Of a stretch of DNA of 64,000 bases, positions 1,453-20,781 are shown piece after piece. Made by a program: the position numbers and the translations under genes. The stretch covers positions 30,245-94,244 of the forward strand of contig JBAXNN010000008.1 in the NCBI GenBank assembly GCA_037133755.1. The letters are read 5' to 3'. This DNA comes from Thermoleophilia bacterium. Its GTDB lineage: Bacteria > Actinomycetota > Thermoleophilia > Gaiellales > F1-60-MAGs149. Each line of letters starts with the position of its first letter. Position 1 is the first letter of the stretch. The notes beneath the pieces are model-generated. The model saw only the letters and a program-made list of their open reading frames with translations, searched no databases and had not been told where the DNA came from.

Positions 1453-1456
1453 CGCG

Positions 1457-2395: not shown

Positions 2396-4250
<1,855 letters not shown>

Positions 4251-4251
<1 letters not shown>

Positions 4252-7224: not shown

Positions 7225-9114
7225 TCAGGGCGTGAGTTCGATGCGGCGGCCGATCGCCGTCAAGAGCTCGGGTGGCACGCCGAAGAACTCGGGACGCCCC
7301 TGGGAGAAGCGATGCATGGCGGCGAACAGATACAGCGGGACCGAGCGCAGTCCCCTGCCCTTGACGGCCACGGAGTCGCGCCCGATGAGGTAATCGGCCA
7401 CCTGTGGATCGAATGGCTCGCCCAGCGCGAGTCGCCCCAGTGCCGCAGGCACGTCAGGTTGCTCGGTGAACCCGAAGCGAAGCGCAATGCGCTGCACGCC
7501 GTGCTGCAGCACAACAACCTCGGCGCGCTCCGCCTCCGGAACCACGGGAACCTCGGTTGTGCTGATCGAGACGATCAGCGTGCGCTCGTAGATGCCTCCG
7601 GTGCGATCGGCCAGTTTCATCAGCGTCCCAGGCGCCACCTCCGGCTCACGCACGAGGAAGACACCCGTACCACGCAACCGGCCGCGGGCCGATGGCGGCA
7701 ACGTGGCCAGGAATCCGTCCAGCGGCACGGCGTGAGCCGCCGCCTCGGCCAGCAAGCGATCACGCCCCGTCGACCACGAGCGGACGACGAAGAAGATCAC
7801 CACGGCGATGGAGACGGTGAACCACGCGCCGTGCACGATCTTGATCACGTTCGACGAGAAGAACAGGATGTCGACGACACCGAGCGGTACGTAGACGAGC
7901 GCCACGACCAGCGGCGACCAACGCCAGACCGTGCGAGCCACGATCGCCGCGAGGATCGTCGTGCAGATCAGGGTGCCAGTGACCGTCAGGCCGTACGCCA
8001 CGACGAGACGGGATGAGGACTGGAAGATCAGCACCGTCGCCGCCACGCCGATGAACATGATCAGCGTGATCACGGGGATGTTGATCTGCCCGCGGATCGT
8101 CTTCGAGGTGTGGACGATCGGCAGGCGCGGCAGAAATCCCATCTGCATCGCCTGCTGCGTCAGCGAGTACATGCCCGTGATGACCGCCTGCGACGCGATC
8201 ACCGTCGCCAGCGTGGCGAGCACGACCATCGGCAGCATCAGTCCGTCGGGAACCAGCGCGTAGAAGGGGTTGTTGATCTTACGCGGATCGTCCAGAACCA
8301 ATGCGCCCTGTCCGAGATAACACAGCACCAGTGCTGGGAAGACGATCACCGACCACGAGATCGTGATGGGTGGACGCCCGAAGTGCCCCATGTCGGCGTA
8401 CAACGCCTCGACACCGGTGATCGCGAGGGTGACCGCACCAAGCGCGAGGAACGTCATTGTCGGCTCGCGCAGCGCGAGGTCGATCGCATAGGTGGGACTG
8501 ATCGCCCGCAGCACCGAGGGGTTCTGCACGATCTGCACGATGCCGAGTGCCGAGATCACGGTGAACCAGAGAAGCATGATCGGCCCGAACACGCGCCCGA
8601 TGCTCCCTGTGCCCCAGCGCTGCATCATGAAGAGGAGCGTCAGGATGACCAACGCGATCTCGGTCTCGTACTCCTGCAATCCGCTATTGATGAGCGATGC
8701 TCCCTCGATCGCCGACAGCACCGACACGCTCGGCGTGAGTACCGCGTCGGCGGCGAAGAGCGCGATCGCGAGCATGCTGAGGAAGATGACCAGCGCCCGG
8801 CGTCGCCCCCGGACGAGAGGCTCAACGAGGGCGCCCAGCGCCAAGGTGCCGCCCTCGCCGTTGTTCGATGCCCGCATCACAACGATCACGTACTTGATGG
8901 TGACCACGATGATGAGCGCCCAGACGAACAGTGAGAGCGCACCAAGCACGGATGGCTCGTCGACGGTGAGGCCGATATCGGGGCCGAACGCGGCCTGGAA
9001 GGCGTAGAGCGGGCTGGTGCCGATGTCGCCGTAAATGACACCGAGCGCGGCGAGGACAAGCAGCGCGACCGCGCCGCGTCGCGGCGTGCCCTGGTGACGA
9101 TTCGCATGCGGCAT
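7225..9114 (-). CDS. kup: KUP/HAK/KT-family potassium uptake transporter
   Basis: 629 aa and polytopic. N-terminal signature GVIYGDIGTSPLYAF; GEGGTLAL; a C-terminal cytosolic domain. Confidence 0.9.
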   Translation of the reverse strand: MPHANRHQGTPRRGAVALLVLAALGVIYGDIGTSPLYAFQAAFGPDIGLTVDEPSVLGALSLFVWALIIVVTIKYVIVVMRASNNGEGGTLALGALVEPLVRGRRRALVIFLSMLAIALFAADAVLTPSVSVLSAIEGASLINSGLQEYETEIALVILTLLFMMQRWGTGSIGRVFGPIMLLWFTVISALGIVQIVQNPSVLRAISPTYAIDLALREPTMTFLALGAVTLAITGVEALYADMGHFGRPPITISWSVIVFPALVLCYLGQGALVLDDPRKINNPFYALVPDGLMLPMVVLATLATVIASQAVITGMYSLTQQAMQMGFLPRLPIVHTSKTIRGQINIPVITLIMFIGVAATVLIFQSSSRLVVAYGLTVTGTLICTTILAAIVARTVWRWSPLVVALVYVPLGVVDILFFSSNVIKIVHGAWFTVSIAVVIFFVVRSWSTGRDRLLAEAAAHAVPLDGFLATLPPSARGRLRGTGVFLVREPEVAPGTLMKLADRTGGIYERTLIVSISTTEVPVVPEAERAEVVVLQHGVQRIALRFGFTEQPDVPAALGRLALGEPFDPQVADYLIGRDSVAVKGRGLRSVPLYLFAAMHRFSQGRPEFFGVPPELLTAIGRRIELTP

Positions 9115-9160: not shown

Positions 9161-11071
9161 TCAGATCTCGACGCGCGCGCCCATCGTGACCGTGTGATCC
9201 GGGGGCACGTGGAAGAAGTCCGTCGAGACCTGTGCGTGGCGATGGAGCAGCGCGAAGACGCGGCGCGGGAAGCCGATGAAGCCGCGGGACGTGACAGCAA
9301 CGGTGTCGCGGCCAACGAAGTACGACGTCGTCTCCGGGTCGATGTGGGGTCCGATCGCGCTCGCCTCGAGCGCGACGGGGACGTTCGGCGACTCGGCAAA
9401 GCCGAAGCGCAGGAACACGCGCCACAGGCCCGGGCTGATCTCCGTCGCCTCAGAGCGATTGGCATCGGTCGCGTACGGCGTGTCAAGCGTCTGCACGGTC
9501 AGCAGCACAGTCAGCTCGTGGATGCGGCCGAAGTTGCGGATCGTGGCGATCAGCGGGCGTGGCACATGGGTGGACGAGGCGACGAGGAACACGCCGGTGC
9601 CCTCCGTGCGCTTGTACTTGCCGGCCGCGACCTTCTCGGTGAAGTCATCGGCCGGCACGGCCTCGCGCGAGAGCGCGCGCATCATCGCCGTGCGTCCCGT
9701 CGACCACGACGAGATGATGATGAACAGGATTGTCGCGACGACCAGCGAGAACCACGCGCCGTGCGGGATCTTCGACATGTTGGCAGTGAAGAACGCGACG
9801 TCGACGATGCCGAGCGGTCCGAAGATCAGCACGATGCGCCACTTCGGCCAGTGCCAGAGGTGGAAGGCGACGATCACGGCGAGGACCGTGGTGCACACCA
9901 ACGTACCGGTGACGGCGAGACCATAGGCCGCCGCGAGGTGCTCGGAAGACTTGAAGATCAGGATCGTCGCAACCACCGCGAGGTACTGGAACAGCGTGAT
10001 GACGGGCATGAAGATCTGGCCGCGCACCGTCGCCGACGTCTGCAGCACCTTCATGCGCGGCAGCAGGCCGAGCTGCATCGCCTGGCGCGTCACGGAATAG
10101 GCGCCCGAGATGACGGCTTGGGACGCGATCACCGTGGCGAGCGTGGCGAGGATCACGACCGGAATCTCGATCCCACCCGGCACGAGGTGGTAGAAGGGAT
10201 TGTCGATCAGCTGCGGATTCTCGAGCAGCAGCGCGCCCTGACCGAGGTAGCAGAGCGTGAGACTCGGGAAGACGATCAGCAGCCACGACAGCGTGATCGG
10301 CGGGCGGCCGAAATGCCCCATGTCCGCGTACAGCGCCTCGGCACCGGTGATCGCGAGCGTGACCGCACTGAGCGCGCCGAACGACAGCAGCGGATGGGCG
10401 ACGATGAACTCGAAGGCGTAGATCGGCAGGATCGCGCGCACCACGGTCGGGTTCTCGCGGATGCCGTTGATGCCAATACCCGCGATGACGAGAAACCAGA
10501 CGAGCATGATCGGGCCGAACAGGCGGCCGACCTTCTCCGTGCCGAAGCGCTGGCCGAGGAAGAGCGTCGTCAGAATCACGAGCGCGATCACGATCGCATA
10601 CCGCTCGATCTCGGGAAACTTGAGGCCTGCGCCTTCGACAGCTGACAGCACCGAGATGCTCGGTGTCAGCACCGCGTCGCTCATGAAGAGCGAGACCGCG
10701 AGGATGCCGACGATGATCACCATCGTGCGCGTCTTGTTCTGCACGAAGCGCAGCGCGAGCGACTGAAGCGCCAGATCGCCGCCCTCCCCCTTGTTGTTGG
10801 CGCGCGTCACGATGATCACGTACTTGATCGTCACGACGATGATCAGTGCCCAGATGAACATCGAGAGGAGGCCGAGGATGTCCTGCTCGTTCGGCTTCAT
10901 GCCGAACGTCGAGCTGAAGGCCACCTGCATCGCGTAGAGCGGGCTCGTGCCGATGTCGCCGTAGATCACCCCGAGCGCGCCGAGCGCGAGGAGTGGCAGT
11001 GGCCCGTGCGGGACATGGCTGCCTCCGGAGGTGGCGTGGTTCGAATCGGACAATGCAGTGCGGCGTCGCAT
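9161..11071 (-). CDS. kup: KUP/HAK/KT-family potassium uptake transporter (tandem paralogue)
   Basis: ORF 9161..11110. The start is uncertain (ATG 11071 MRRRTALSD.. or 11110). Motifs GVIYGDIGTSPLYAM and GEGGDLAL. Colinear with the downstream kup. Confidence 0.88.
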   Translation of the reverse strand: MRRRTALSDSNHATSGGSHVPHGPLPLLALGALGVIYGDIGTSPLYAMQVAFSSTFGMKPNEQDILGLLSMFIWALIIVVTIKYVIIVTRANNKGEGGDLALQSLALRFVQNKTRTMVIIVGILAVSLFMSDAVLTPSISVLSAVEGAGLKFPEIERYAIVIALVILTTLFLGQRFGTEKVGRLFGPIMLVWFLVIAGIGINGIRENPTVVRAILPIYAFEFIVAHPLLSFGALSAVTLAITGAEALYADMGHFGRPPITLSWLLIVFPSLTLCYLGQGALLLENPQLIDNPFYHLVPGGIEIPVVILATLATVIASQAVISGAYSVTRQAMQLGLLPRMKVLQTSATVRGQIFMPVITLFQYLAVVATILIFKSSEHLAAAYGLAVTGTLVCTTVLAVIVAFHLWHWPKWRIVLIFGPLGIVDVAFFTANMSKIPHGAWFSLVVATILFIIISSWSTGRTAMMRALSREAVPADDFTEKVAAGKYKRTEGTGVFLVASSTHVPRPLIATIRNFGRIHELTVLLTVQTLDTPYATDANRSEATEISPGLWRVFLRFGFAESPNVPVALEASAIGPHIDPETTSYFVGRDTVAVTSRGFIGFPRRVFALLHRHAQVSTDFFHVPPDHTVTMGARVEI

Positions 11072-11153
11072 ACGGCCGGCGCCGGCTGAGTATACCGCCG
11101 CTGCGAACAAACCCCTGCCATAGTTCAGCGATGGCGTTGAAAGGATTCACCCA

Positions 11154-12605
11154 GTGTTCGTGAACAAGACCCCGCGTTTCGAGCCCCTCTCCGAGGACGC
11201 ACTCGACACCATCGACCGAGGCTGGAAGCGCCTCGTCTCCGAGGTCGGGATCAAGTTCGTGCACGAGCCGTCGCTCGAGCTCTTTCGCCGCGAGGGCCAG
11301 CGCGTCGAGGACGAGGTGGTCTTCTTCGACCCCGAGTGGATTCTTGAGAAGATCAAGACGACGCCGACCGAGTTCCGCCTGATCTCGCGCAACCCGGACA
11401 AGAACGTGCAGTTCGGCCGCGACAACATGGTCTTCTGCACCGGCCAGTCGATGCCGTTCTGCGACGACGGCGTCACGGGCCGCCGCGACGGCACGCTCGC
11501 CGATGCCGTCCAGCTGCTGCGCGCCGCACAGATGACGCCCGAGATCGACACGCCCGGCTATCCGATCATCGAGGTCAACGACAAGCCGATCGATTCGCGC
11601 CATCTCGACCTGCAGCTCGCGATGTACGAGAACACCGACCTCCCCGTCGGCGCTGCGCAGATCCACCTCAACGGCGTGATCGACTCGATCGCGATGGCCG
11701 AGATGGTGCTCGGCGGCCCCGAGGTGCTCGAGAAGGACGCCGCGGTCTTCGGCACGATCAACGCGAACTCGCCGCTGATGTTCGATACGCGCATGCTCGA
11801 GTCGCTGTGGATGCTCGCCGAGCGCAATCAGATCGTCAACATCACGCCGTTCATCATGATGGGCGCGATGGGTCCGGTCGCCGTGCCGGCCGCACTCGCA
11901 CAGCAGACCGCCGAGTCGCTGGCGGGCATTGCGCTCGTCCAGGCGATCCGCCCGGGCTGCCCCGCGATCATGGGCTCGTTCGTCTCGAACACCGACATGA
12001 AGTCCGGCTCGCCCGGCTTCGGCGGCCCCGAGGCAGCACTTGGCATCCTCGCCACCGGCCAGATCGCGCGTCGCCACAACGTCCTGTGGCGCGCCGGCGG
12101 TGGTGGCCTCAACGCCAGCCCGGCCGTGGATGGACAGTCGGCCTTCGAGTCGCTCAACACGATGGCCCAGTCGTTTCTCGCCGGCGCCAACCTCCAGCTG
12201 CACACCACCGGCTGGCTCGAGGGCGGCCTCGTGCACTCGTTCGCCAAGGTCGCGATGGACACCGAGATGCTGCGCAACCTGATCGCGGAGTTCACGCCGA
12301 TCGAATGGACCGACGAGAACCTCGCCTTCGAGGCGCATGCCGAGGTTGGCCACGCCGGCCACTTCTTCGGTGCCGCGCACACGCTGGAGAACTTCCGCGA
12401 CTGCTTCTATCGCCCGACGGTCTGGACGACAGACAACTACTCGGCGTGGACGAAGAAGGGCGGCAAGAACGCCACCGAGCGCGCACTCGACGAGTTCAAT
12501 CGTTTGCAGGAGGCATGGGCAGAGAACCCGCCCACGCTCGACCCCGATCTTCACGCCGAGCTGAAGGCGTACACGGATCGGCGTCGCACCGAGCTCGGCG
12601 ACTAA
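11154..12605 (+). CDS. MttB-superfamily (COG5598) methyltransferase, non-pyrrolysine type (quaternary/tertiary amine methyltransferase candidate)
   Basis: 483 aa from a GTG start with no in-frame TAG. The length and blocks (NANSPLMFD, ITPFIMMGAMGPVAVPAALAQ, GSPGFGGPEAA, GANLQLHTTGWLEGGL, GHFFGAAHTLENF) fit my recollection of trimethylamine methyltransferase-family proteins. Confidence 0.75.
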   Translation: MFVNKTPRFEPLSEDALDTIDRGWKRLVSEVGIKFVHEPSLELFRREGQRVEDEVVFFDPEWILEKIKTTPTEFRLISRNPDKNVQFGRDNMVFCTGQSMPFCDDGVTGRRDGTLADAVQLLRAAQMTPEIDTPGYPIIEVNDKPIDSRHLDLQLAMYENTDLPVGAAQIHLNGVIDSIAMAEMVLGGPEVLEKDAAVFGTINANSPLMFDTRMLESLWMLAERNQIVNITPFIMMGAMGPVAVPAALAQQTAESLAGIALVQAIRPGCPAIMGSFVSNTDMKSGSPGFGGPEAALGILATGQIARRHNVLWRAGGGGLNASPAVDGQSAFESLNTMAQSFLAGANLQLHTTGWLEGGLVHSFAKVAMDTEMLRNLIAEFTPIEWTDENLAFEAHAEVGHAGHFFGAAHTLENFRDCFYRPTVWTTDNYSAWTKKGGKNATERALDEFNRLQEAWAENPPTLDPDLHAELKAYTDRRRTELGD

Positions 12606-12611
12606 CGCCTC

Positions 12612-13436
12612 ATGGTCGTCCTGTTCGGCTTGGTCACGGCCTTCTCGTGGGCGTTCGCCAACGTGTTCACGCAACAGGCGAGCCGGACCAAGACCAAGCC
12701 GGCGGTGATCATGTTCTGGGTCTTGATCGTGACGGCAGCAGTGGTGCTGCCCGTCGCACTGGTCGTCGATCGCCTCGAGGGCCCGTGGACCCCAGCCGGG
12801 TTGGGCTGGCCCATTCTCGCCGGCCTGCTCGCCACCGTCGGCTTCTTCCTGCTGCTGCGCGCGCTGACGAAGGGCAGCCTGAGCGTCGTCGCGCCGATCA
12901 TCGCCCTCGAGGGCGGTGTCGCGACGCTGCTGTCGATCGCGCTTGGTGAGCGCCCATCGGCCGTCCAGTACGTGTTGCTTGGCGTGGCGGTCGTCGGCGC
13001 CTTCCTCGTGGCGGTCGAGCCGGGCCGCCGCACGGCGGCTGGGGCTCCCGAAGCGGTACTCGCAGCGTTCGCCTACGCCGGCGTGCTGATCGCGCTCGGC
13101 CAGTCGAACCTGCCCGACCTGACCACCGTCGGCGTCACGCGAACCGTCAGCGTGCTCGCGATCCTGCCGGCGTTCCTCCTGGTACGCGAGCTGCCGAAGC
13201 GCACGAACGTCTACCCGATTCTCTGGTGCGGCCTGCTCGACGCGGTCGGCTTCGCCTTCTTCGCCTTTGCCGCGTCGATCGGTCCGCTCTCGGTCGCCTC
13301 GGTGACGGCCACGCAGTGGGGCACGGCCGCGGCGCTGATCGGCATCATCGGCATGCGCGAGCGGCTGTACACGAACCAGTACATCGGCATCGCGGTCACG
13401 CTCTTCGCAGTGACCGGGCTCGGGCTCTTGTCCTAG
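12612..13436 (+). CDS. EamA/DMT-family transporter
   Basis: 274 aa with about 10 hydrophobic helices in two EamA-like halves. Starts 6 nt after the mttB-like stop. Confidence 0.75.
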   Translation: MVVLFGLVTAFSWAFANVFTQQASRTKTKPAVIMFWVLIVTAAVVLPVALVVDRLEGPWTPAGLGWPILAGLLATVGFFLLLRALTKGSLSVVAPIIALEGGVATLLSIALGERPSAVQYVLLGVAVVGAFLVAVEPGRRTAAGAPEAVLAAFAYAGVLIALGQSNLPDLTTVGVTRTVSVLAILPAFLLVRELPKRTNVYPILWCGLLDAVGFAFFAFAASIGPLSVASVTATQWGTAAALIGIIGMRERLYTNQYIGIAVTLFAVTGLGLLS

Positions 13437-14185
13437 ACGCGACGCTGGAGCGCGGCGACCGAGGCGGTCGATAGCGGCTCGCGCGTGATGCCCGTCGTTC
13501 CGCCACGCGTGGCGAAGGCGGTGATGCGGCCGGCGCGCTCGCCGTGATGCGCGAGCAGGCGGTGACGGCGGATGTCGTGCACGAGGAAGTCGACGGTCGC
13601 GGCGAGGCCATCGACCACGGTGACGTCACCGGCCAGCTCGCGTACCTCATCGGCGTCGACGTACGCGCTCGGCGTGAGCAATAGGAGCACCGCTACCTCG
13701 GGCGCGTGCTTGCGGACGCGCATGAGCAGATCGCGGGCGGGATCGGTACCGCGCTCGATCAGCGTGACGCTACCGCCGCCGCGCAGCGTGCGGATCGCCT
13801 TGGCCAGCACCATCGTCTTGACCTCGTCGGACGAGAACACCGCGGCGATCGGGCGCCCCTTCGCCTCGGCCAGGGCCGCGCGCAGGCCGCACTCCAGTCC
13901 CCGTACGGAGATGCCCTCGAACTCGGGTCGCGCCTCGAAGGATGCGAAGCCGCCGGCGAGCAGCAGCGCCTTGGCGCCCTCATCGAGGAGCCCCGTCGCG
14001 AGATCGTGCACGCGCCGCGTCACCTGATCGGGCCGCCGGCCCGCGTACGGCGCGAACGCCTGGTCGGCGACGACGAGGATGTCCTCCTTCGGCAGTTGGG
14101 CGCGCAGGAGCTCGGCTCCGCGCACGCCCTCCCAGCCCTCGGCGACGACCCCGATCGAACCTGCCGGGTCGGCGCTCCAGGTCAC
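13433..14185 (-). CDS. Glutamate-racemase-like (Asp/Glu racemase fold) protein lacking both catalytic cysteines
   Basis: ORF 13433..14311 trimmed to GTG 14185, which overlaps the upstream TGA. SIGVVAEGWEGVRGAELLRAQLPKEDILVVADQAFAPYAGRRPDQV..AKALLLAGGFASFEA aligns by eye with MurI IGVxDSGVGGL..LP.E.IIYxGDTARxPYG..[12 protein letters not shown]. The CNTA motif is replaced by GGFA and GCTHYP by LTPSAY. Confidence 0.5.
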   Translation of the reverse strand: MTWSADPAGSIGVVAEGWEGVRGAELLRAQLPKEDILVVADQAFAPYAGRRPDQVTRRVHDLATGLLDEGAKALLLAGGFASFEARPEFEGISVRGLECGLRAALAEAKGRPIAAVFSSDEVKTMVLAKAIRTLRGGGSVTLIERGTDPARDLLMRVRKHAPEVAVLLLLTPSAYVDADEVRELAGDVTVVDGLAATVDFLVHDIRRHRLLAHHGERAGRITAFATRGGTTGITREPLSTASVAALQRRV

Positions 14186-15348
14186 GACCGCGGTCGCTTC
14201 TTCTCCGAGTCGTAGATTGGGAATGCAGCGGCCGTCGCCTCGGCGAGAGTCCCGTCGGGAAGCGCAACCTGTACACGCGTACCGGATGCGACGAGGTCTG
14301 CCTCGATGCACGCCATGCCGATCTGCAAATCGACGCTCGGCGAACGACCCGCCGACGGCGACAGCAACGTTCCGACATTCCGACCATCGACAAAGACCTC
14401 TGCCCCGTAATCCGGTGCCTCATCTCCGTCGACGACCAGCGTCGTGAGGCGGTGCGTGATGCCCGCGGCCAGCTCATCGACCAGCGCCTGCTTGCCAACG
14501 AAGTCACCCGTATCGAGACTGATGGTCCGATCCAGATTCATGTGGAACGGCGAAGTCTCGCCCACGAAATAGTCGTAGCCGATAAAGATCAGGCCCGACT
14601 CGATCCGCAGCGACTCAACCGCAGCCAGACCGTACGGACGGATTCCGTACGCTGCACCAGCCGCGAGCAGAGCCTCCCACAACATCTCGGCGCTGTCCTT
14701 CGGCACGTAGATCTCGTAGCCGAGCTCGCCCGAGTACCCCGTGCGAGCCAAGTAGCAGCCGGCAATACCCGCGACCGTGATCGGCTCCGTCGTGAAGCGG
14801 AAGTACTTGAGCGACGCGACCTCGAAGTCCGTGAGGCCATCGATCAGGTCACGCGACTTGGGACCCTGTACCTGGACGTGCGGCCACTCCTCGGTGCGAT
14901 CGAGGATTTCGACGTCGAAACCCTGCTGCGTCGAGACACGGCGAAAGTGATCGACGTCACTCGGCAGCGCGGTCACCACGAGGATGCCGGCACCCGTCTC
15001 ATCACCGGTGTTGAAGACCACACCGTCGCCGAGCATGCAGCCGTTCTCGTCGAGAAAGCACGAGTACCGGGCCTGTCCGACGGCAAGGTCAGACATGTCG
15101 TTGGCGAAGCAGAAGTCGACGGCCTTGATCGCGTCGTTGCCGCGGAAGATCCACTTCTGCAACGGCGACTCGTCCCAAACACCAACGGTCTCGCGAACCG
15201 CATGGTGCTCGGCAAGTGGATTGCCGAAGTCGGAGATCCAATCCCAGCCCTCCCACTCGGCAAAGGTGCCACCCTGACGACGCTGAATCGCGTCAAAGGC
15301 CGTCAACCGCAGGCCTTCAGCGCCGGCTGCGTTTTCCTGATCGCTCAT
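14182..15348 (-). CDS. GcvT-like aminomethyltransferase-family (folate-binding) protein
   Basis: Part of ORF 14182..16050. ATG 15348 overlaps the upstream TGA (ATGA). MSDQENAAGAEGLRLTAFDAIQRRQGGTFAEWEGWDW..ARTGYSGELGYEIYVP..YGLAAVESLRIESGL is typical of the GcvT/DmdA fold. Confidence 0.85.
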   Translation of the reverse strand: MSDQENAAGAEGLRLTAFDAIQRRQGGTFAEWEGWDWISDFGNPLAEHHAVRETVGVWDESPLQKWIFRGNDAIKAVDFCFANDMSDLAVGQARYSCFLDENGCMLGDGVVFNTGDETGAGILVVTALPSDVDHFRRVSTQQGFDVEILDRTEEWPHVQVQGPKSRDLIDGLTDFEVASLKYFRFTTEPITVAGIAGCYLARTGYSGELGYEIYVPKDSAEMLWEALLAAGAAYGIRPYGLAAVESLRIESGLIFIGYDYFVGETSPFHMNLDRTISLDTGDFVGKQALVDELAAGITHRLTTLVVDGDEAPDYGAEVFVDGRNVGTLLSPSAGRSPSVDLQIGMACIEADLVASGTRVQVALPDGTLAEATAAAFPIYDSEKKRPRS

Positions 15349-17342
15349 GACCGCGGTCTCCTCTTCTCGGGGTCGTAGATCGGGTACGTGTCGGTGTACG
15401 CCGGGACGAGACGGCCGTCGGGCAGCGCCACCTCGACGCGATTGCCCGGCTCGGCCAGCTCGGCCTCGATGCACGCCATGCCGATCAGGCGATCGACGCT
15501 CGGCGAGCGTCCCGCCGACGGCGACAGCAGCTTGCCGACACCGCGACCGTTGACGAAGACATCGGCGCCGTAGTCCGGCGCCTCGTTGCCCGCGACGACG
15601 AGCGTCGTGAGGCGATGCGTGATGCCCGCGGCCAGCTCGTCGACGAGCGCCTGCTTGCCGTTGAAGTCGCCCGTCTCCAGGTTGATCGTCCGGTCCAGGT
15701 TCATATGGAACGGCGAGGTCAGGCCCTGGAAGTAGTCGTAGCCGATGAAGATCAGGCCCGACTCGATGCGGAGCGACTCGACGGCGGCGAGGCCGTACTG
15801 ACGGATGCCGCGCGACGCGCCCTCGTTGAGGAGCTCCTGCCAGAGCGCTTCGGCGCCGGCCTTCGGCACGTAGATCTCGTAGCCGAGCTCGCCCGAGTAG
15901 CCAGTGCGGGCCAGGTAGCAGCCCGCGATGCCGCCGATCGTGATCGGCTCCGTCGTGAAGCGGAAGTACTTGAGCGAGTCGACGTCGAAGTCGGTCATCG
16001 CGCTGATCAGCTCGCGCGACTTCGGACCCTGCACCTGGATGTGCGGCCACTCCTCGGTGCGGTCGAGGATCTCGACGTCAAAGCCCTGCTGCTTCGAGAC
16101 GCGGCGGAACTGGTCCACGTCGCTCGGCAGTGCGGTCACCACGAGGATGCCGGCACCGGTCTCGTCGCCCGTGTTGAAGGCGACGCCGTCGCCGAGCATG
16201 CGACCGTACTCGTCGACGAAGCACGAGTAGCGGGCCTGGCCGACCTGCATCGAGGCCATGTCGTTGGCGAAGCAGTAGTCGACGGCCTTGAGCGCGTCGG
16301 GTCCGCGGAAGATCCACTTCTGCAGCGGTGACTCGTCCCAGATGCCGACGGTCTCGCGGACCGCGTGGTGCTCGTCGATCGGATCGCCGAAGTCAGAGAT
16401 CCAGTCCCAGCCCTCCCACTCGGCGAAGGTGCCGCCGTTGCGGCGCAGAATCGCGTCGAAGGCTGTCTTGCGCAGACCCTCGGTCGAGACCTGCGGGGCG
16501 GGCGCCTCGACGATCGCGATGCCGGCGGCCTCAGCGGGAGGTGAACCCTCCTGATCGGCGGCAGCGACCGGGGTGTCGACGGGGATGATCACGATCGGCG
16601 CCTGGCGCAGGTCCGGCGGCTGATGGCCCGGCGGCAGCACCTCGGACACGCCCAACAGAGCGCGCGCGGCGGCCGGATTCGGCAGCGTGCGGTACTCCTC
16701 GAGGCAGCGCATAGGCTCCTGGTCGAGGTTGCGGCGGATGCGGCGATAGCGGGCCTGCGCACCGGCACCGAGGCCCGGCGTCGAGAAGATCGCCTGCTCG
16801 ACGTACGACTCAATCACCTTGTTGCCGAGCAGCTTGACGTCGGCCTCGCGGGCCTTGCCCGTGAGCGGGTTGTACAGCACGACGCACTTGATGGTGTCGA
16901 GGAACGAGTTCCACGTCGACAGCACGACGGGACCACGGACGCGAATGCCTGTCTCGGGGATCGCGAGGTGCGTGATGCGGCGGTCATTGATCGTGTGGAT
17001 CAGCGACTCAGCGGTCGGCGACATGATGCTGACGAACTTGTGCATCGGCCACACGTCGAGCTGGTTCCAGTCGCCGGGCTCGCAATCGACGCCGATCATG
17101 TACGTGTCGGCGTAGCGGAAGAAGTTCGCATTGCCCCGCGTCTCGCGCAAGTGGTCGTAGAACAGCGTGTTCGTGCCGCCGATCAGGTTCGAGCAGCCAA
17201 CGGCGTCCATCGGCGTGCCCATCACCACGCAGAAGCGGTCGCCGTTCTTGTAGCCACCGGGCCAGAGGGTGTTCAGCGGAGCGGAAACGCCGTCGCGCTC
17301 GACGGAGAAGTCCTCGGAATTGAGTGCGTAGGACGAATGCAT
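15345..17342 (-). CDS. Fusion protein: unrecognised ~255-aa N-terminal domain, Pro/Ala linker, GcvT-like aminomethyltransferase domain
   Basis: 665 aa. Residues ~288-665 are colinear and highly similar to the downstream stand-alone GcvT-like protein. Residues 1-255 (MHSSYALNSEDFSVERDGVSAPLNTLWPGGYKNGDRFCVVMGTPMDAVGCSNLIGGTNTLFYDHLRETRGNANFFRYADTYMIGVDCEPGDW..) have no nucleotide-binding motif I recognise. Confidence 0.8.
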   Translation of the reverse strand: MHSSYALNSEDFSVERDGVSAPLNTLWPGGYKNGDRFCVVMGTPMDAVGCSNLIGGTNTLFYDHLRETRGNANFFRYADTYMIGVDCEPGDWNQLDVWPMHKFVSIMSPTAESLIHTINDRRITHLAIPETGIRVRGPVVLSTWNSFLDTIKCVVLYNPLTGKAREADVKLLGNKVIESYVEQAIFSTPGLGAGAQARYRRIRRNLDQEPMRCLEEYRTLPNPAAARALLGVSEVLPPGHQPPDLRQAPIVIIPVDTPVAAADQEGSPPAEAAGIAIVEAPAPQVSTEGLRKTAFDAILRRNGGTFAEWEGWDWISDFGDPIDEHHAVRETVGIWDESPLQKWIFRGPDALKAVDYCFANDMASMQVGQARYSCFVDEYGRMLGDGVAFNTGDETGAGILVVTALPSDVDQFRRVSKQQGFDVEILDRTEEWPHIQVQGPKSRELISAMTDFDVDSLKYFRFTTEPITIGGIAGCYLARTGYSGELGYEIYVPKAGAEALWQELLNEGASRGIRQYGLAAVESLRIESGLIFIGYDYFQGLTSPFHMNLDRTINLETGDFNGKQALVDELAAGITHRLTTLVVAGNEAPDYGADVFVNGRGVGKLLSPSAGRSPSVDRLIGMACIEAELAEPGNRVEVALPDGRLVPAYTDTYPIYDPEKRRPRS

Positions 17343-17384: not shown

Positions 17385-18035
17385 CTAGTTCATACGCGCG
17401 CCGAGACGACGGTGCTCGAACTCCATCACCTTCATGTCGCGATCGCCGAGCGGCAACTCGAGCCGCAGCTGCGCGGCCTTGAGCGACCGCCCCACGTCGC
17501 CACGACGCTCATACGACGCAACGAGGTTCGACAGGATGCGCAGCGCCGTCAGGTGCACCGGCGTCTGCACGATGCGGCCCGGGGGCGGCGGATCGGCGAG
17601 CAGTACACCGCCCTTGAACGGGTCGAGCAGAATCGGATCGCCATCGCCGAACCAGCCCACGACGTAGTGCCCGGGCAGGCCGACGCCGCGGATCGGGATG
17701 CCGACGCGGCGTCCCACCTCGATCCAGACGACGCTGAGCAGGATGGGCAGGCCGCGCTTGCGTTCGAGCACCAGATCCAGCATCGAATTGTCGGGATGGT
17801 CGTAGTCCTCGACGTCGCCGAGGAAGCCCTCGCGGCGTCCCAGCACCGTGCGGAGCGCCTCGATCTGCTCGAGGCCGGTCTCCCCCACGCCGTTCAGCAC
17901 GACCTCGCCGGCCAGCCGGTCGAGCTCGGCCAGCGCCAGTTCCTGATCCACCTCGCGCAGCGCACCCGCGATCGCCAGCGCGAGCAGGTCGAGCGTGGGC
18001 GCGTCGGTGCGCGCGAGTTGTGCAAATCGGTTCAT
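17385..18035 (-). CDS. Transglutaminase-like/TPR (SirB1, UPF0162-type) protein
   Basis: ORF 17385..18086 trimmed to ATG 18035 (MNRFAQLARTD..). The block YDHPDNSMLDLVLERKRGLPILLSVVWIEVGRRVGIPIRGVGLPGHYVV matches my recollection of this family. Confidence 0.55.
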   Translation of the reverse strand: MNRFAQLARTDAPTLDLLALAIAGALREVDQELALAELDRLAGEVVLNGVGETGLEQIEALRTVLGRREGFLGDVEDYDHPDNSMLDLVLERKRGLPILLSVVWIEVGRRVGIPIRGVGLPGHYVVGWFGDGDPILLDPFKGGVLLADPPPPGRIVQTPVHLTALRILSNLVASYERRGDVGRSLKAAQLRLELPLGDRDMKVMEFEHRRLGARMN

Positions 18036-18125
18036 CTCTCGTATCTTCGCGCGTCTACCCGGCGCGAGACTGGCGCAACCCCACATCAGGGGATCCAGAC
18101 CAGCTCGGCGATCAGCGTCGATTTG

Positions 18126-18392: not shown

Positions 18393-19541
18393 TCAGAGGC
18401 CGATGCGCGCGCCCATCGGCGTCTCGACGAGCGCGAAGGGCGTGTCGGGTGCCATGCGGTCGATGCCGAAAATGTCGGCCTCGGGCCAGGCGGGCTTGCC
18501 TTCGGCGATATCGCCGATCAGCTCGCCCATGATCGGCATGAACTTAAAGGCGTGGCCGCTACAACCGGTCGCAACGGTGATGGCGCCGCGTCGCTCGATG
18601 AAGTACTCACCATCGGGCGTCATCGTCCACGGACACGATTCGGTCAGGTGCGGCCCGTCCGAGGCGAGGCCCGGTGCGTGGCTGATGACCCAGTCGCGAT
18701 TGCACTCCTCTTCGAAGCCGCGATGGGGCCACGCCGCAGCGTCAGGATCCCACGTGTCCTCGCAGCCGTAATCGAGGCCGATCTTGTAGCCCTTGCCCGG
18801 GGTCGGCAGGCCGTAAACGCCGATCTTGTCGGGCGCGTAGAAGTCGACGAGCGAAGGGCGGCGCTGCCACGCGCCGCCACCACGCCAGTACGAGACCTGG
18901 CCGATGGCGGGAGCAAGCGGCAGGCGGATGCCCAGCGGCTCGAGCAGCGTCGTAGCCCACGGACCAACCGCCAGCACGGCGATGTCCGCGTCGATCACAC
19001 GTCGATTCGTCGTCACGCGCACACCGGCTGGGGTCTCATCGACCTCGAGCATGCGCTCCGGGGTCGACAGCTCGGCGCCGGCGCTGCGCGCGGCATCGGC
19101 CATCGCGGCGAGGCCCTTGGCGGCGAACAGCACGCCATCGTCGGGCACAAACGCAGCAGCCTCCTGCGGCCGGTACGACAGTTCTGGAAAGGCGCGCTGC
19201 ACGCCATCGGCATCGAGTTCCTCGACGGGCACGCCAGCGTCGCGCATGGCGGCAACCCACGCGGGGACCGGATCGCCCCGCAACACCAGGCCCACGTGGT
19301 CGAGCAGCTGCTCACCCGACAGCGCCTCGAGCTCGCGCCATTTATCGAGCGCCTTGCGAGCCAACACGATGTCTCCGGGGCGCTCGTGCGCCAGGCGGAA
19401 GATGCGGGTAGCACCCGCCGACGAGCCCGCGGGGGCCGAGATGCCGTGGCGATCGATACCGATCACCTCGTGGCCGCGCTCGGCGAGCGCACGCGCCGTC
19501 GGCAGCCCCATCACGCCCAGCCCGACCACGACGGCCTTCAT
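18393..19541 (-). CDS. FAD-dependent oxidoreductase, monomeric sarcosine oxidase / N-methyl amino acid oxidase-like (DAO family)
   Basis: ORF 18393..19769 trimmed to ATG 19541. MKAVVVGLGVMGLPTARALAERGHEVIGIDR contains the GxGxxG motif. TGCSGHAFKFMPIMGELI resembles the MSOX/MTOX covalent-flavin cysteine region. Confidence 0.75.
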   Translation of the reverse strand: MKAVVVGLGVMGLPTARALAERGHEVIGIDRHGISAPAGSSAGATRIFRLAHERPGDIVLARKALDKWRELEALSGEQLLDHVGLVLRGDPVPAWVAAMRDAGVPVEELDADGVQRAFPELSYRPQEAAAFVPDDGVLFAAKGLAAMADAARSAGAELSTPERMLEVDETPAGVRVTTNRRVIDADIAVLAVGPWATTLLEPLGIRLPLAPAIGQVSYWRGGGAWQRRPSLVDFYAPDKIGVYGLPTPGKGYKIGLDYGCEDTWDPDAAAWPHRGFEEECNRDWVISHAPGLASDGPHLTESCPWTMTPDGEYFIERRGAITVATGCSGHAFKFMPIMGELIGDIAEGKPAWPEADIFGIDRMAPDTPFALVETPMGARIGL

Positions 19542-19545
19542 CGAT

Positions 19546-20781
19546 TCAGACCTTCGCCGCGACAGTGGCGGCGATGACGAGATCAGCGGCGCGGCGGCCA
19601 GAGCGCAGCGCGCCGTCGATCGAGGCGTTCTCGGTGCCGTCGCCCGAGAGGATGACCTTGTCGCGCAGCCAGCGCACGCCACTCGACAGCGACCCCGGCG
19701 GCTGCGCGTGCTGCGCCCACTCGATGCGATCCACGCGCAGGAGGCGCCACGTGTGCACGCGGCTGCCAAACCAGGGAGTTAGCTGCGCACGCGCCGCGGC
19801 GTCAAGCGCCGCATCGTCCCCGGCGGGCAGACCCACGCACGAGGCGGCAATCAGCGCCTGACCGGCCGGCGCGTACGACGGCGCGACGGCGCTCATCACG
19901 GCGACGTTGTTGACCGGTCCGGTGCCATCACCATCGAGCACGATGCGCTTGCCCGCGGGGGCTTCGACGGCGGCGTACCAGAGGCACGTCGAGCCGCGCG
20001 GCTCGGGCGCCGGAATGCCGGCAAGCGCGCAGGCATCGACGGTGCCAGCGGCGATCACCACAGCGTGCTTGGCCTTCAGCGTCTTGCCGGAGGCGAGCGT
20101 GACGCTGGCCTTGCCGACCTTGGTGACGCGCTCGTGTAGGTGAATGCTGCCCCCTGGCAGGCGTGCGGCAAGCTGGTCGGCGATCGCGCCCATGCCGCGT
20201 GCTGGCACGACCGTGCGGCCGGAGGCCATCTGGCTGAAGACCTGGTCGATCAGATGGCTCGAGACGTTGAGCTCGGGATCGAGGAACACGCCGCGGTAGA
20301 GCGGGCGCAGCAGACGCTCGCGGACCGACTCGGAGAAGCCGAGATCGCGCAGGCGCTGGTCTGCTGTGGTCTCCGGTGCCGTTGCGGTGGCGAGTGGCTT
20401 GGCCTGCAGCAGCCACGTGGCTGCCGCCTTGATGTCTGCTGGGCCGCCGATACCGGCCTTGACGGCCTGCGGCACAGAACGCGGATCGCGCAGCGGATGG
20501 CCGATCGTCCGCATGCGGCCGTCCCACCAGATGTCGGCGCCAGGCTGGAAGGCCTTCAGGTCGAGGGCGTCGAGATCGAGCGCGCGCTTGGCCTCGGGGT
20601 ACCCGTCAAACAGCACCTGGAAGCCGCGGTCGAGCAGAAAGCCGTCGACGTGGTCGGTACGGACGCGGCCACCGACGCCATCGGACGCCTCCACGACTTC
20701 GACGTCGATGCCGTGCTCGCGCAGCAGCGCCGCGCAGTTGAGCCCGGCGAGTCCTGCTCCGATGACGACGACGTCGGCCAT
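19546..20781 (-). CDS. NAD(P)/FAD-dependent oxidoreductase, flavin amine oxidase family
   Basis: MADVVVIGAGLAGLNCAALLREHGIDVEVVEASDGVGGRVRT is the classic amine-oxidase dinucleotide fold. There is a 4-nt gap to the downstream oxidase. Confidence 0.8.
   Translation of the reverse strand: MADVVVIGAGLAGLNCAALLREHGIDVEVVEASDGVGGRVRTDHVDGFLLDRGFQVLFDGYPEAKRALDLDALDLKAFQPGADIWWDGRMRTIGHPLRDPRSVPQAVKAGIGGPADIKAAATWLLQAKPLATATAPETTADQRLRDLGFSESVRERLLRPLYRGVFLDPELNVSSHLIDQVFSQMASGRTVVPARGMGAIADQLAARLPGGSIHLHERVTKVGKASVTLASGKTLKAKHAVVIAAGTVDACALAGIPAPEPRGSTCLWYAAVEAPAGKRIVLDGDGTGPVNNVAVMSAVAPSYAPAGQALIAASCVGLPAGDDAALDAAARAQLTPWFGSRVHTWRLLRVDRIEWAQHAQPPGSLSSGVRWLRDKVILSGDGTENASIDGALRSGRRAADLVIAATVAAKV

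What the first reader, a model, noticed from the sequence alone, without database searches (positions are those of the whole stretch)
16578..17342. Unrecognised ~255-aa domain fused to the N-terminus of a GcvT-like protein
Known GcvT fusions that I recall carry an FAD (DAO) domain (dimethylglycine oxidase or dehydrogenase type) or a DUF1989 domain (TMAO demethylase type). The first 255 residues here have no GxGxxG dinucleotide motif and match nothing I recognise. They read MHSSYALNSEDFSVERDGVSAPLNTLWPGGYKNGDRFCVVMGTPMDAVGCSNLIGGTNTLFYDHLRETRGNANFFRYADTYMIGVDCEPGDWNQLDVWPMHKFV..IKCVVLYNPLTGKAREADVKLLGNKVIESYVEQAIFSTPG... A Pro/Ala/Glu-rich linker (16482..16577) joins them to the folate domain. 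By analogy with other GcvT fusions, this domain is a candidate for the substrate-oxidising or C-N-cleaving module that feeds a one-carbon unit to THF.
Basis: partly seen in the sequence, partly recalled or inferred. Interest (0 to 1): 0.7.

Follow-up and report, generated by a model that had tools for sequence, protein, structure and literature searches.

The report
Unnamed amine-catabolism domain fused to GcvT
The first 255 residues of this folate-binding (GcvT-type) protein are a real domain from a protein family that no database names; relatives sit next to many different amine-oxidising enzymes, so it is probably a helper that passes their reactive one-carbon product to folate, not the oxidising enzyme itself.

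Summary
ORF 15345..17342(-) encodes a 665-aa protein: a 255-aa N-domain, a Pro/Ala-rich linker, then a Tdm-like GcvT domain. The N-domain is coding (GC3 0.91). It has no hit in Pfam, NCBIfam or PDB sequences.

The same fusion is intact in about 50 species-level Gaiellales genomes. Database "stand-alone" close relatives are frameshifted MAG genes.

A distant family (22-39% identity) of true stand-alone proteins, 220-280 aa and all labelled "hypothetical", occurs in Actinomycetota, Bacillota, Pseudomonadota and on haloarchaeal plasmids. Invariant residues are His2, Arg36 and Tyr77; Asp35, Tyr62, Asp96, Pro99, Asp120 and Arg121 are at least 92% conserved and Lys102 88%.

Their genes lie beside trimethylamine dehydrogenase with ETF, copper amine oxidase (overlapping stop/start), dimethylamine monooxygenase genes, flavin oxidoreductases, GcvT and MTHFR-like genes.

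The AlphaFold2 model is confident (pLDDT 91.7). Its only fold resemblance is weak, to LmbE/PIG-L deacetylases, and the zinc ligands are missing.

Best reading (confidence about 0.4): a non-redox accessory module of amine catabolism that couples separately encoded oxidases to folate capture of the one-carbon unit. The biochemical role is inferred, not shown.

The parts
16578..17342 (-). N-terminal domain (aa 1-255) of an undescribed family. The structured core is about aa 1-236. Family-wide invariants are H2, D35-R36, Y62, Y77, D96-x-W98-P99-x-x-K102 and D120-R121.
   Evidence: GC3 is 0.91. No Pfam, NCBIfam or PDB hit. 79 close homologues and 275 cluster representatives were found. AF2 pLDDT 91.7. 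Conservation measured over 296 non-identical sequences.
16482..16577 (-). Pro/Ala/Glu-rich linker (aa 256-287).
   Evidence: Sequence composition. The preceding aa 241-255 have low AF2 confidence, pLDDT 52-56. Length and sequence vary among homologues.
15345..16481 (-). GcvT-type folate-binding domain, stop codon included. GCV_T lies at 15690..16451 and GCV_T_C at 15372..15614. It is the Tdm-like subtype.
   Evidence: Pfam E-values 8e-60 and 2e-9. Best solved relatives are TMAO demethylase 9q5a (153 bits) and B. subtilis GcvT 1yx2. It shares the C-terminal YDPxKxRPRS tail with Tdm. It falls below the NCBIfam GcvT cut-offs.
14182..15351 (-). Second GcvT gene (389 aa) without the N-domain. It is an 82%-identical tandem copy of the fusion's GcvT half, and its ATG overlaps the fusion's TGA (ATGA).
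   Evidence: Among the fetched loci the duplicate is present only in L017 and L021.
13433..14188 (-). Conserved downstream partner gene. It is a diverged glutamate-racemase-like protein whose first catalytic Cys is replaced by Gly.
   Evidence: Found directly downstream of the fusion in most fusion loci, at 30-86% identity (35 of 71 loci by neighbour clustering). MurI matches only at E 7e-8 and 37 bits; 'AGGFAS' aligns to 'ACNTAS'. No Pfam hit.
17385..18086 (-). Transglutaminase-like (Transglut_core2) gene directly upstream, 42 nt from the fusion's ATG.
   Evidence: Pfam E 6e-33. Syntenic only in the freshwater clade L010-L026.
18393..19769 (-). FAD-dependent oxidase of the N-methyltryptophan / monomeric sarcosine oxidase type. 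It is a candidate oxidising enzyme of the cluster.
   Evidence: Pfam DAO E 1e-40. NCBIfam N-methyl-L-tryptophan oxidase 202 bits against a cut-off of 257. The likely true start is the Met of MKAVVVGLG at about 19541, read from the translation.
19546..20781 (-). Flavin-containing amine oxidoreductase, the first gene of the syntenic block.
   Evidence: Pfam Amino_oxidase E 2.5e-40. Syntenic in the freshwater clade.
11154..13436 (+). Convergently transcribed pair on the opposite strand, meeting the fusion cluster tail-to-tail at 13433-13436: a non-pyrrolysine MttB-family methyltransferase (11154-12605) and an EamA transporter (12612-13436).
   Evidence: Pfam MTTB E 3e-150 and EamA E 2e-23. Linked to the fusion only in the freshwater clade, in 10 of 14 loci.

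Best explanation
The 255-residue N-domain belongs to an unnamed family of non-redox accessory proteins of amine catabolism.

Proposed mechanism:
1. Separately encoded enzymes oxidise the amine. In this window the candidates are the MSOX/MTOX-like flavoprotein and the flavin amine oxidase upstream.
2. The N-domain acts on, binds or relays their reactive carbonyl or iminium product. For N-methyl amines that product is formaldehyde.
3. The fused Tdm-like GcvT domain condenses the one-carbon unit with tetrahydrofolate to give 5,10-methylene-THF.

The fusion would then be a self-contained capture module. It resembles DmmD, or the folate half of TMAO demethylase, but carries an extra front end.

Shown here: the domain is real, conserved and unannotated; it is fused to or adjacent to GcvT; its family is genomically linked to amine oxidases and dehydrogenases.

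Inferred: that it is non-catalytic in redox terms, that its ligand is the aldehyde or iminium product, and that it hands that product to the folate site.
For: 1. Fusion. An intact N-domain-GcvT ORF of 658-680 aa occurs in about 50 Gaiellales genomes.

2. Gene adjacency (Rosetta-stone link). Stand-alone homologues sit directly upstream, on the same strand, of a 398-aa GcvT (L139, 143, 146, 148, 149, 151, 154), of an MTHFR-like gene (L132, 141, 156, 160, 164, 165), or near a DAO-GcvT dehydrogenase (L115, L123). That neighbouring GcvT is a different, DmdA-like subtype, only 29% identical to the fused one. The pairing therefore appears with two GcvT subtypes.

3. Neighbours that are complete oxidisers of unrelated families:
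- True trimethylamine dehydrogenase (917 bits to PDB 1DJN) with EtfAB and an Fe-S/CCG oxidoreductase, in 7 loci called directly (L090, 92, 94, 104, 108, 112, 113) plus L102 and L105, which carry the Etf context.
- Copper primary-amine oxidase whose TGA overlaps the ATG, in L082. The other paralogue loci with upstream sequence (L080, L081, L083, L085) show the same arrangement by ORF position and N-terminal sequence.
- The dimethylamine monooxygenase operon (HODM alpha plus DmmA-like) in Bacillus methanolicus PB1 and Bacillus sp. 1NLA3E.
- An FAD oxidoreductase 4 nt upstream in Rhodococcus opacus 1CP.
- An FAD-binding oxidoreductase in Arthrobacter and an NtaA/DmoA monooxygenase in Terrarubrum.
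- Rieske ferredoxin plus its reductase in Caballeronia.

4. Window context. The window and its freshwater clade carry amine oxidase and an MSOX/MTOX-like oxidase just upstream. Soil-clade fusions have copper amine oxidase (12 of 52) or a GMC choline-dehydrogenase-like gene (7 of 52) nearby.

5. No redox cofactor motif in the N-domain.

6. The GcvT half keeps hallmark motifs (WDES, GYSGELGYE, LRIESG) and the Tdm-type C-terminal tail.

7. Precedents from the literature. Tdm channels formaldehyde from a catalytic core to its GcvT domain (PMC13619132). DmmD, a GcvT protein, is proposed to conjugate formaldehyde from DmmABC with H4F (PMC5520151).
Against: - No biochemical data exist for any family member.
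- The common product is not always formaldehyde. The copper amine oxidase / RidA / agmatinase context suggests longer aminoaldehydes or cyclic imines.
- Fourteen stand-alone loci sit in an RNase J / histidine kinase context with no amine genes. Several plasmid contexts are uninformative.
- Only 23 of 52 soil-clade fusion loci show one of the tested amine or folate genes within 8 kb.
- No background control for neighbour enrichment was run.
- Strict invariance of His2, Arg36, Tyr77, Asp35 and Asp96 looks more like a catalytic or ligand site than a passive adaptor.
- No contact between the N-domain and the GcvT half could be modelled.
Confidence: 0.4

Rival explanations
1. The N-domain is itself the catalytic module that cleaves a C-N (or C-S/C-O) bond of an unidentified methylated substrate. 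It would play the role DUF1989 plays in TMAO demethylase and feed the one-carbon unit to its own GcvT domain.
For: - The architecture parallels Tdm, and the GcvT half is closest to Tdm's.
- Invariant polar residues (H2, D35, R36, Y62, Y77, D96, K102, D120, R121) fit an active site, and His/Asp residues could hold a metal.
- About half of the soil-clade fusion loci lack any recognisable oxidase nearby.
- A convergent MttB-family gene in the freshwater clade hints at quaternary-amine substrates.
Against: - Stand-alone homologues are encoded beside enzymes that already perform the C-N cleavage: TMADH, DmmABC and copper amine oxidase.
- There is no cofactor or known metal motif.
- There is no similarity to DUF1989 or to any demethylase.
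- His84, 89% conserved in stand-alone members, is Gly in every fused member. That is odd if the fused form were the catalytic one.
Confidence: 0.2
2. The N-domain is a remodelled LmbE/PIG-L-type hydrolase. It would hydrolyse an amide, N-formyl or imine adduct formed during amine catabolism, for example as a deformylase or imine hydrolase.
For: - The only fold match with E<0.01 is LnmX, an LmbE-like protein: E 4.6e-3, probability 1.0, TM 0.45-0.47. MshB and a teicoplanin deacetylase appear lower in the same list.
- Two local motifs are collinear with the two LmbE motifs (my reading of the sequences): VVMGTPMDAVGCSNLIGGT against FVHAHPDDESLSNGATIA, and VVLYNPLTGKAREADV against VVVTYDPNGGYGHPDH. 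The second pairing is the only segment hhalign aligned.
- A RidA imine deaminase lies next to N-domain genes in Gaiellales loci.
Against: - Profile-profile comparison with MshB gives a probability of 0.2%.
- Pfam PIG-L is not matched by any of 34 members, even at E<=10.
- In the motif alignment above, the positions matching the zinc ligands (His13, Asp16, His147 of MshB, assigned from my own knowledge of that enzyme) are not conserved as His/Asp in the family; position 46 is Gly in 85% of stand-alone members.
- A TM-score of 0.45 is below the usual same-fold threshold.
Confidence: 0.15
3. The N-domain has no direct chemical role. It is a ligand-sensing, regulatory or oligomerisation/docking domain that tunes or localises partner enzymes in nitrogen-compound catabolic clusters.
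For: - Its contexts are very heterogeneous: amine oxidases, transporters (APC, ABC, MFS), two-component systems and an acetone carboxylase regulator region.
- Translational coupling to a copper amine oxidase suggests stoichiometric complex formation.
- The ancestral LmbE-type metal site, if it ever existed, has been lost.
Against: - An invariant N-terminal His2 together with an Arg/Tyr/Asp constellation across phyla is unusual for a pure scaffold.
- There is no DNA-binding or signalling output domain.
- Repeated adjacency specifically to folate enzymes (GcvT, MTHFR-like) points to chemistry, not regulation.
Confidence: 0.2

Closest known systems
TMAO demethylase (Tdm): DUF1989 catalytic core plus a C-terminal GcvT domain
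   Same: Both are two-module proteins with a non-flavin N-terminal part and a C-terminal GcvT folate domain. The GcvT half here is most similar to Tdm's (153 bits to PDB 9q5a) and shares the C-terminal YDPxKxRPRS tail. In Tdm, formaldehyde is tunnelled to the THF site to form methylene-THF (PMC13619132).
   Different: The N-domain is not DUF1989 and matches no Pfam family. The NCBIfam Tdm model scores 228 bits against a cut-off of 1100, and only over the GcvT half. The protein is 665 aa against 793. The N-domain family also exists as free-standing proteins next to other oxidases.
DmmD, the GcvT-type fourth gene of the dimethylamine monooxygenase operon dmmDABC
   Same: DmmD is a folate-binding accessory that is not needed for amine oxidation itself. 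It is proposed to conjugate the released formaldehyde with H4F (PMC5520151). In Bacillus, the stand-alone N-domain homologue is the extra gene of a dmmABC-like operon.
   Different: DmmD is described only by its GcvT domain (PMC5520151). In the Bacillus clusters the extra gene is the N-domain and no GcvT lies within 10 kb. This window has no dmmABC genes. Orthology of the fused GcvT half to DmmD was not tested.
Dimethylglycine oxidase/dehydrogenase and heterotetrameric sarcosine oxidase (DAO flavin domain plus GcvT domain)
   Same: In these enzymes a GcvT domain captures the one-carbon unit released by amine oxidation. Here an MSOX/MTOX-like DAO flavoprotein is encoded two genes upstream. That gives the same parts list in split form.
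   Different: The flavin domain is not fused here, and the N-terminal partner is an unrelated, cofactor-less domain. PDB matches to DMGDH and DMGO cover only the GcvT half.
LmbE / PIG-L superfamily of zinc deacetylases (MshB, LnmX, TT1542)
   Same: This is the only structural neighbour found. Foldseek ranks LnmX 5bmo first (E 4.6e-3) and lists MshB and a teicoplanin deacetylase further down. By my reading, the two LmbE motif regions have collinear counterparts in the N-domain.
   Different: The AHPDD and HxxH zinc motifs are absent. hhalign gives a probability of 0.2%, and there is no Pfam PF02585 match. TM-score is 0.45. The domain has an extra N-terminal segment carrying the invariant Met-His.

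Membership tests
GcvT / aminomethyltransferase superfamily (C-terminal half) | Pfam GCV_T and GCV_T_C domains above their gathering scores. | tested here: met
   202.6 bits against a cut-off of 25.6, and 37.6 bits against 25.9.
Glycine-cleavage T protein proper (GcvT equivalog) | A score above the NCBIfam equivalog or subfamily cut-off. | tested here: not met
   PRK00389 scores 227 bits against 300. TIGR00528 scores 169 bits against 236.
TMAO demethylase (Tdm) | An N-terminal DUF1989 catalytic core and a full-length match to NF053776. | tested here: not met
   No Pfam family matches aa 1-255. NF053776 scores 228 bits against 1100 and covers only profile positions 382-762.
Dimethylglycine/sarcosine oxidase-dehydrogenase fusions | An N-terminal DAO FAD-binding domain with a GxGxxG motif. 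| tested here: not met
   No DAO hit and no GxGxxG in aa 1-255.
LmbE / PIG-L deacetylases | A Pfam PF02585 match and profile-level homology. | tested here: not met
   None of 34 members match at E<=10. hhalign against an MshB alignment gives a probability of 0.2%.
LmbE / PIG-L deacetylases | The zinc-binding His-x-x-Asp (AHPDD) motif and the second His (HxxH). | tested here: not met
   The corresponding stretches read GTPMDAV and READV by my motif alignment. No His is conserved there in the family, and position 46 is Gly in 85% of stand-alone members.
LmbE / PIG-L deacetylases | The same three-dimensional fold. | tested here: inconclusive
DmmD (accessory of dimethylamine monooxygenase) | A GcvT protein encoded with dmmABC. 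| tested here: not met
   The window has no HODM-alpha or DmmA-like genes (tblastn). Sequence orthology to DmmD was not tested.
New N-domain family (unnamed) | Start Met-His; D-R before the first core strand; [FY]YD helix; Y-P/A-D; LDVWPxHK; NDRxIT. | tested here: met
   The window protein carries all of these motifs. H2 and R36 are 100% conserved, Y77 99%, and D35/Y62/D96/P99 at least 95%, over 296 non-identical sequences.

The most novel reading that the evidence does not exclude
The family is a new, widespread component of amine and methylated-amine catabolism. It would be a metal-free one-carbon or aldehyde hand-off or activating domain, perhaps using the invariant N-terminal His2 with the Arg36/Tyr77/Asp96/Lys102 cluster. 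It would physically couple oxidases of unrelated families (TMADH, copper amine oxidase, haem DmmABC, flavin oxidases) to folate enzymes. That would be the role so far assigned either to spontaneous chemistry or to GcvT alone.
Probability: 0.25. Interest if true: 0.75.

Novelty: new variant of a known kind. Interest (0 to 1): 0.6.

Why it matters
Formaldehyde released by amine demethylation is toxic. How cells hand it to folate is understood only for enzymes with built-in tunnels (Tdm, DMGO, sarcosine oxidase).

Here an unannotated protein family recurs beside trimethylamine dehydrogenase, dimethylamine monooxygenase and copper amine oxidase, and in one lineage is fused to GcvT. That makes it a concrete, testable candidate for the missing coupling component. 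The window even supplies a natural control: a GcvT-only paralogue next to the fused gene.

The work also gives a first functional handle on several hundred "hypothetical" proteins (275 representatives of 50%-identity clusters) in soil and freshwater Actinomycetota, Bacillota (including the methylotroph Bacillus methanolicus) and Pseudomonadota.

Tried and rejected
1. Chance ORF in high-GC DNA: rejected by GC3 of 0.91 and conservation.

2. Close stand-alone versions of the domain (P0012, P0013, P0018): rejected. In their contigs the GcvT part follows in shifted frames, as expected of nanopore MAG frameshifts.

3. Known-family assignment:
- Pfam on the window domain, on 10 stand-alone representatives and on all 34 members of alignment A4 at E<=10 gave nothing.
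- NCBIfam gave nothing.
- PDB sequence profiles from alignments A2, A4 and A5 gave nothing meaningful.

4. The first AF2 run used a shallow 24-sequence alignment and gave an unusable model, pLDDT 56. A second run with 83 sequences gave pLDDT 91.7.

6. LmbE homology test. My last homologue search used MshB and returned only near-identical mycobacterial MshB proteins, so the LmbE profile was shallow. hhalign was negative. That test is weak either way.

7. MttB linkage as a general feature: rejected. It holds only in the freshwater subclade, plus one Mesorhizobium plasmid remnant.

8. dmmABC in the window: absent.

9. A first neighbour clustering on all six-frame ORFs was too noisy in high-GC DNA. 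It was redone with a GC3-based gene filter.

10. A genome scan with the most diverse alignment failed for lack of a conserved stretch. It was repeated with a narrower alignment.
Full report
**1. The observation**

ORF 15345..17342(-) is one 665-aa frame that starts MHSSYALNSEDF. An in-frame TAG lies 12 nt upstream of the ATG and an AGGA lies 8 nt upstream. Third-position GC is 0.91 over residues 1-255, 0.81 in the linker and 0.93 in the rest, so the whole frame is coding.

Pfam and NCBIfam recognise only the C-terminal half: GCV_T at aa 298-551 and GCV_T_C at aa 577-657. Residues 1-255 give nothing at E<=1. Residues 256-287 form a Pro/Ala/Glu-rich linker. There is no GxGxxG. A single GxGxxA at 190-195 lies in a predicted loop between two helices and is not among the positions at least 80% conserved in the wider family.

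**2. Who else has the domain**

A word-indexed search found 79 close relatives (46-73% identity). All come from metagenomes, several are labelled Gaiellales, and many carry PF01571. Several looked stand-alone (about 270-300 aa), but the alignment shows frame-shifted tails. In contig L006 the GcvT part follows in two further fragments.

A scan of one genome per GTDB species returned 80 loci. L010, a Lac Pavin Actinomycetota MAG, matches over residues 1-255 at 99-100% identity. The window therefore comes from a freshwater Gaiellales/Thermoleophilia lineage. Translating from the conserved MHS start gives an intact 658-680-aa fusion in about 50 loci spanning 63-99% identity. The exceptions are mostly long-read "MFD" MAGs with frameshifts. 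The fusion is an old, conserved architecture of this order.

An exhaustive HMMER search of 1.84 billion cluster representatives found 275 hits (E<=1e-3). Below the Gaiellales group lies a large set of genuine stand-alone proteins, 220-280 aa and 22-39% identical, aligned from residue 1. A profile search put named members in Bacillaceae and relatives (Bacillus methanolicus PB1, Bacillus sp. 1NLA3E, Niallia, Neobacillus, Metabacillus, Paenibacillus and others) and in Caballeronia. All are "hypothetical protein". tblastn on plasmids added Paracoccus, Mesorhizobium, Terrarubrum, Arthrobacter, Rhodococcus opacus 1CP and two haloarchaea. The same freshwater Gaiellales MAGs that carry the fusion also carry a 225-aa stand-alone paralogue at 35-38% identity (L080-L087).

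None of 34 diverse members hits any Pfam family at E<=10. None of five tested hits NCBIfam. Three family profiles find nothing meaningful among PDB sequences.

**3. Conserved residues**

Conservation was measured over 296 non-identical sequences, 207 of them distant.

| Residue | Conservation among distant members |
|---|---|
| His2, Arg36 | 100% |
| Tyr77 | 99% |
| Asp35, Gly49, Tyr62, Asp96, Pro99, Gly162 | 95-97% |
| Trp98, Asp120, Arg121, Tyr157 | 92-94% |
| Lys102, Asp168, Glu178 | 86-88% |

No Cys is conserved family-wide. Two positions switch cleanly between the forms. Position 84 is His in 89% of stand-alone members but Gly in all fused ones. Position 46 is Gly in stand-alone members but Asp in all fused ones.

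**4. Structure**

With 24 close sequences AlphaFold2 failed (pLDDT 56). With 83 sequences including distant members it gave pLDDT 91.7 and pTM 0.89. The model is an alpha/beta domain over residues 1-236, followed by a low-confidence tail that leads into the linker.

Foldseek against PDB found no match with E<=0.001. The best hit is LnmX (5bmo), an LmbE/PIG-L-like protein: E 4.6e-3, probability 1.0, TM 0.45-0.47. MshB and a teicoplanin deacetylase appear lower in an otherwise random list.

Two stretches are collinear with the two LmbE motifs by my reading. The first is the strand-loop-helix VVMGTPMDAVGCS against VHAHPDDESLS. The second is VVLYNPLTGKAREADV against VVVTYDPNGGYGHPDH. In that alignment the zinc-ligand positions (assigned from my own knowledge of MshB) are not His/Asp in the family. 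hhalign against an admittedly shallow MshB alignment gives a probability of 0.2%. I therefore treat "LmbE-like fold without the metal site" as a lead, not as membership. The other fold libraries were not available.

**5. Genomic context of the fusion**

*In the window.* The order on the minus strand is:
- flavin amine oxidase (19546-20781);
- MSOX/MTOX-like DAO flavoprotein (18393-~19541; 202 bits to N-methyltryptophan oxidase);
- transglutaminase-like protein (17385-18086);
- the fusion;
- a GcvT-only paralogue (14182-15351), 82% identical to the fusion's GcvT half, with an ATGA stop/start overlap;
- a diverged glutamate-racemase-like gene (13433-~14188).

A non-Pyl MttB-family gene and an EamA transporter lie on the opposite strand, convergent with this cluster.

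*In other loci.* This whole block is syntenic only in the freshwater clade L010-L026. The GcvT duplicate is present only in L017 and L021. Across all fusion loci the one constant neighbour is the racemase-like gene directly downstream, at 30-86% identity in most loci (35 of 71 by clustering). Its first catalytic Cys is Gly. Soil-clade loci additionally carry copper amine oxidase (12 of 52), a GMC choline-dehydrogenase-like gene (7 of 52), MFS transporters and a putative (PotD-like, by sequence only) solute-binding protein.

**6. Genomic context of stand-alone members**

A metagenome scan gave 80 more loci. I clustered their neighbours after GC3-filtered gene calling and annotated representatives. 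The recurrent arrangements are:
- (i) A genuine trimethylamine dehydrogenase (917 bits, full length, to PDB 1DJN) with EtfB, EtfA and an Fe-S/CCG oxidoreductase, transcribed divergently from the N-domain gene. A Usp protein and an APC permease follow (7 loci called directly, plus L102 and L105 with the Etf context).
- (ii) The N-domain gene immediately upstream, on the same strand, of a 398-aa DmdA-like GcvT (7 loci).
- (iii) The N-domain gene immediately upstream of an MTHFR-like gene (6 loci, one continuing into GcvT).
- (iv) A DAO-FAO_M-GcvT dehydrogenase with ETF nearby (L115, L123).
- (v) In Gaiellales, the stand-alone paralogue starts on the stop codon of a copper primary-amine oxidase (TGATG in L082; 758 bits, above the NCBIfam cut-off). 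RidA, an arginase-family gene and an MGS-like gene follow.
- (vi) In B. methanolicus PB1 and Bacillus sp. 1NLA3E it sits in or next to a dimethylamine monooxygenase-type operon (HODM alpha, DmmA-like N/C, Fer2), with AmtB transporters and, in PB1, a copper amine oxidase nearby.
- (vii) Rieske ferredoxin plus a ferredoxin reductase in Caballeronia.
- (viii) An FAD oxidoreductase 4 nt upstream in R. opacus 1CP; APC permease > N > FAD-binding oxidoreductase in Arthrobacter; solute-binding protein > N > NtaA/DmoA monooxygenase in Terrarubrum; a remnant beside a betaine ABC transporter and an MttB-family gene in Mesorhizobium.

Fourteen loci show an RNase J / histidine kinase context with no amine genes, and some other contexts are uninformative. 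In a tblastn tally, 28 of 54 stand-alone loci with at least 4 kb of flank carry one of the tested amine or folate genes within 8 kb. That tally misses the copper amine oxidase cases because of ORF merging. I ran no formal background control.

**7. The GcvT half**

Its best solved relatives are Paracoccus TMAO demethylase (9q5a, 153 bits, over Tdm residues 409-787) and B. subtilis GcvT. It keeps the WDES, GYSGELGYE and LRIESG motifs and shares Tdm's C-terminal YDPxKxRPRS tail, including the Lys equivalent to Tdm K782 that is proposed to bind the folate tail (PMC13619132). It is below the NCBIfam cut-offs for true GcvT and far below the cut-off for Tdm. It is only 29% identical to the DmdA-like GcvT that follows stand-alone N-domains. 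The N-domain therefore partners with two different GcvT subtypes.

**8. Interpretation**

The domain co-occurs with complete amine-oxidising enzymes of at least five unrelated families. It lacks any cofactor motif. That argues against it being "the" oxidising or C-N-cleaving module.

Two things unite the contexts. One is the product side of amine oxidation: an aldehyde or iminium, which is formaldehyde for N-methyl amines. The other is folate one-carbon enzymes. The fusion to GcvT in one order and the gene adjacency to GcvT or MTHFR-like genes elsewhere form a classic Rosetta-stone link.

Known precedents are Tdm, which tunnels formaldehyde to its GcvT domain (PMC13619132), and DmmD, a GcvT protein thought to conjugate formaldehyde from DmmABC with H4F (PMC5520151).

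I therefore favour, at about 0.4 confidence, an accessory module that receives or relays the reactive product and delivers the one-carbon unit to the folate domain. In this window the upstream flavin oxidases would do the oxidation.

The rivals are:
- a catalytic demethylase-type module (0.2);
- a remodelled LmbE-type hydrolase acting on N-formyl or imine adducts (0.15);
- a non-chemical sensing or docking domain (0.2).

The strict invariance of His2, Arg36, Tyr77, Asp35 and Asp96 shows there is a defined site. What it binds is not known.

**9. Novelty and score**

The GcvT-fusion principle is known from Tdm, DMGO/DMGDH and sarcosine oxidase. This N-terminal partner, and the stand-alone family behind it, are in none of the libraries searched here (Pfam, NCBIfam, PDB sequences), and every named member is labelled hypothetical. 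I rate it a new variant of a known kind, with interest 0.6. It is a well-defined family with testable hypotheses and a natural internal control, but its function is not established.

Noticed in passing
window 14182-15351 (-): A GcvT-only gene is 82% identical to the GcvT half of the fusion and sits directly downstream with an ATGA stop/start overlap. This recent tandem duplicate is also present in L017 and L021 but absent from the other freshwater-clade loci. It is a natural control lacking the N-domain.
   Followed up: partly
window 13433-~14188 (-); also at the +1 position in most fusion loci (L010-L079): The most conserved neighbour of the fusion is a diverged glutamate-racemase-like protein. 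It scores only 37 bits against the MurI model, and its first catalytic Cys is replaced by Gly (AGGFAS against ACNTAS). It may be a non-racemising amino-acid-binding partner. It has no Pfam hit.
   Followed up: partly
window 11154-13436 (+); L174 (Mesorhizobium plasmid) 12414-13934: A non-pyrrolysine MttB-family methyltransferase plus an EamA transporter lie convergent to the cluster, with no corrinoid protein seen nearby. An N-domain remnant on a Mesorhizobium plasmid also lies near a betaine ABC transporter and an MttB-family gene. The rest of the window was not scanned for B12-binding genes.
   Followed up: partly
L080-L087 (e.g. L082 8106-11149): The freshwater Gaiellales MAGs that hold the fusion also hold a 225-aa stand-alone paralogue. 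In L082 its ATG overlaps the TGA of a copper primary-amine oxidase, and RidA, an arginase-family gene and an MGS-like gene follow.
   Followed up: yes
family alignment, window residues 46 and 84: There is a clean clade switch. Position 84 is His in 89% of stand-alone members and Gly in all fused members. Position 46 is Gly in stand-alone members and Asp in all fused members. This may be a relocated functional residue.
   Followed up: no
database proteins P0012, P0013, P0018 and others; loci L006, L050, L052, L060, L066, L072-L079: Many apparent stand-alone or odd-length close homologues are frameshift artefacts of long-read (MFD/ENA) MAG assemblies, where one gene is split into two or three called genes.
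   Followed up: yes
window 7225-9114 and 9161-11110 (-): Two tandem Kup-type K+ transporter genes (629 and 649 aa) lie next to the MttB gene.
   Followed up: no
window 592-5684 (-): FdhD/NarQ lies beside pieces of a molybdopterin formate-dehydrogenase-like enzyme. ORF 1457-2620 carries the Fer2_4/Fer4/Molybdop_Fe4S4 domains and ORF 4251-5684 carries the Molybdopterin and Molydop_binding domains, with an unassigned stretch between them. This could be the end of a one-carbon oxidation route, or a split or frameshifted gene.
   Followed up: no
L166, L168: In two loci the Fe-S flavoenzyme directly upstream of the N-domain gene, on the same strand and after EtfA and Fe-S/CCG genes, is closer to 2,4-dienoyl-CoA reductase (312 bits) than to trimethylamine dehydrogenase (180 bits). 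Not every 'TMADH-like' neighbour is a TMADH.
   Followed up: partly
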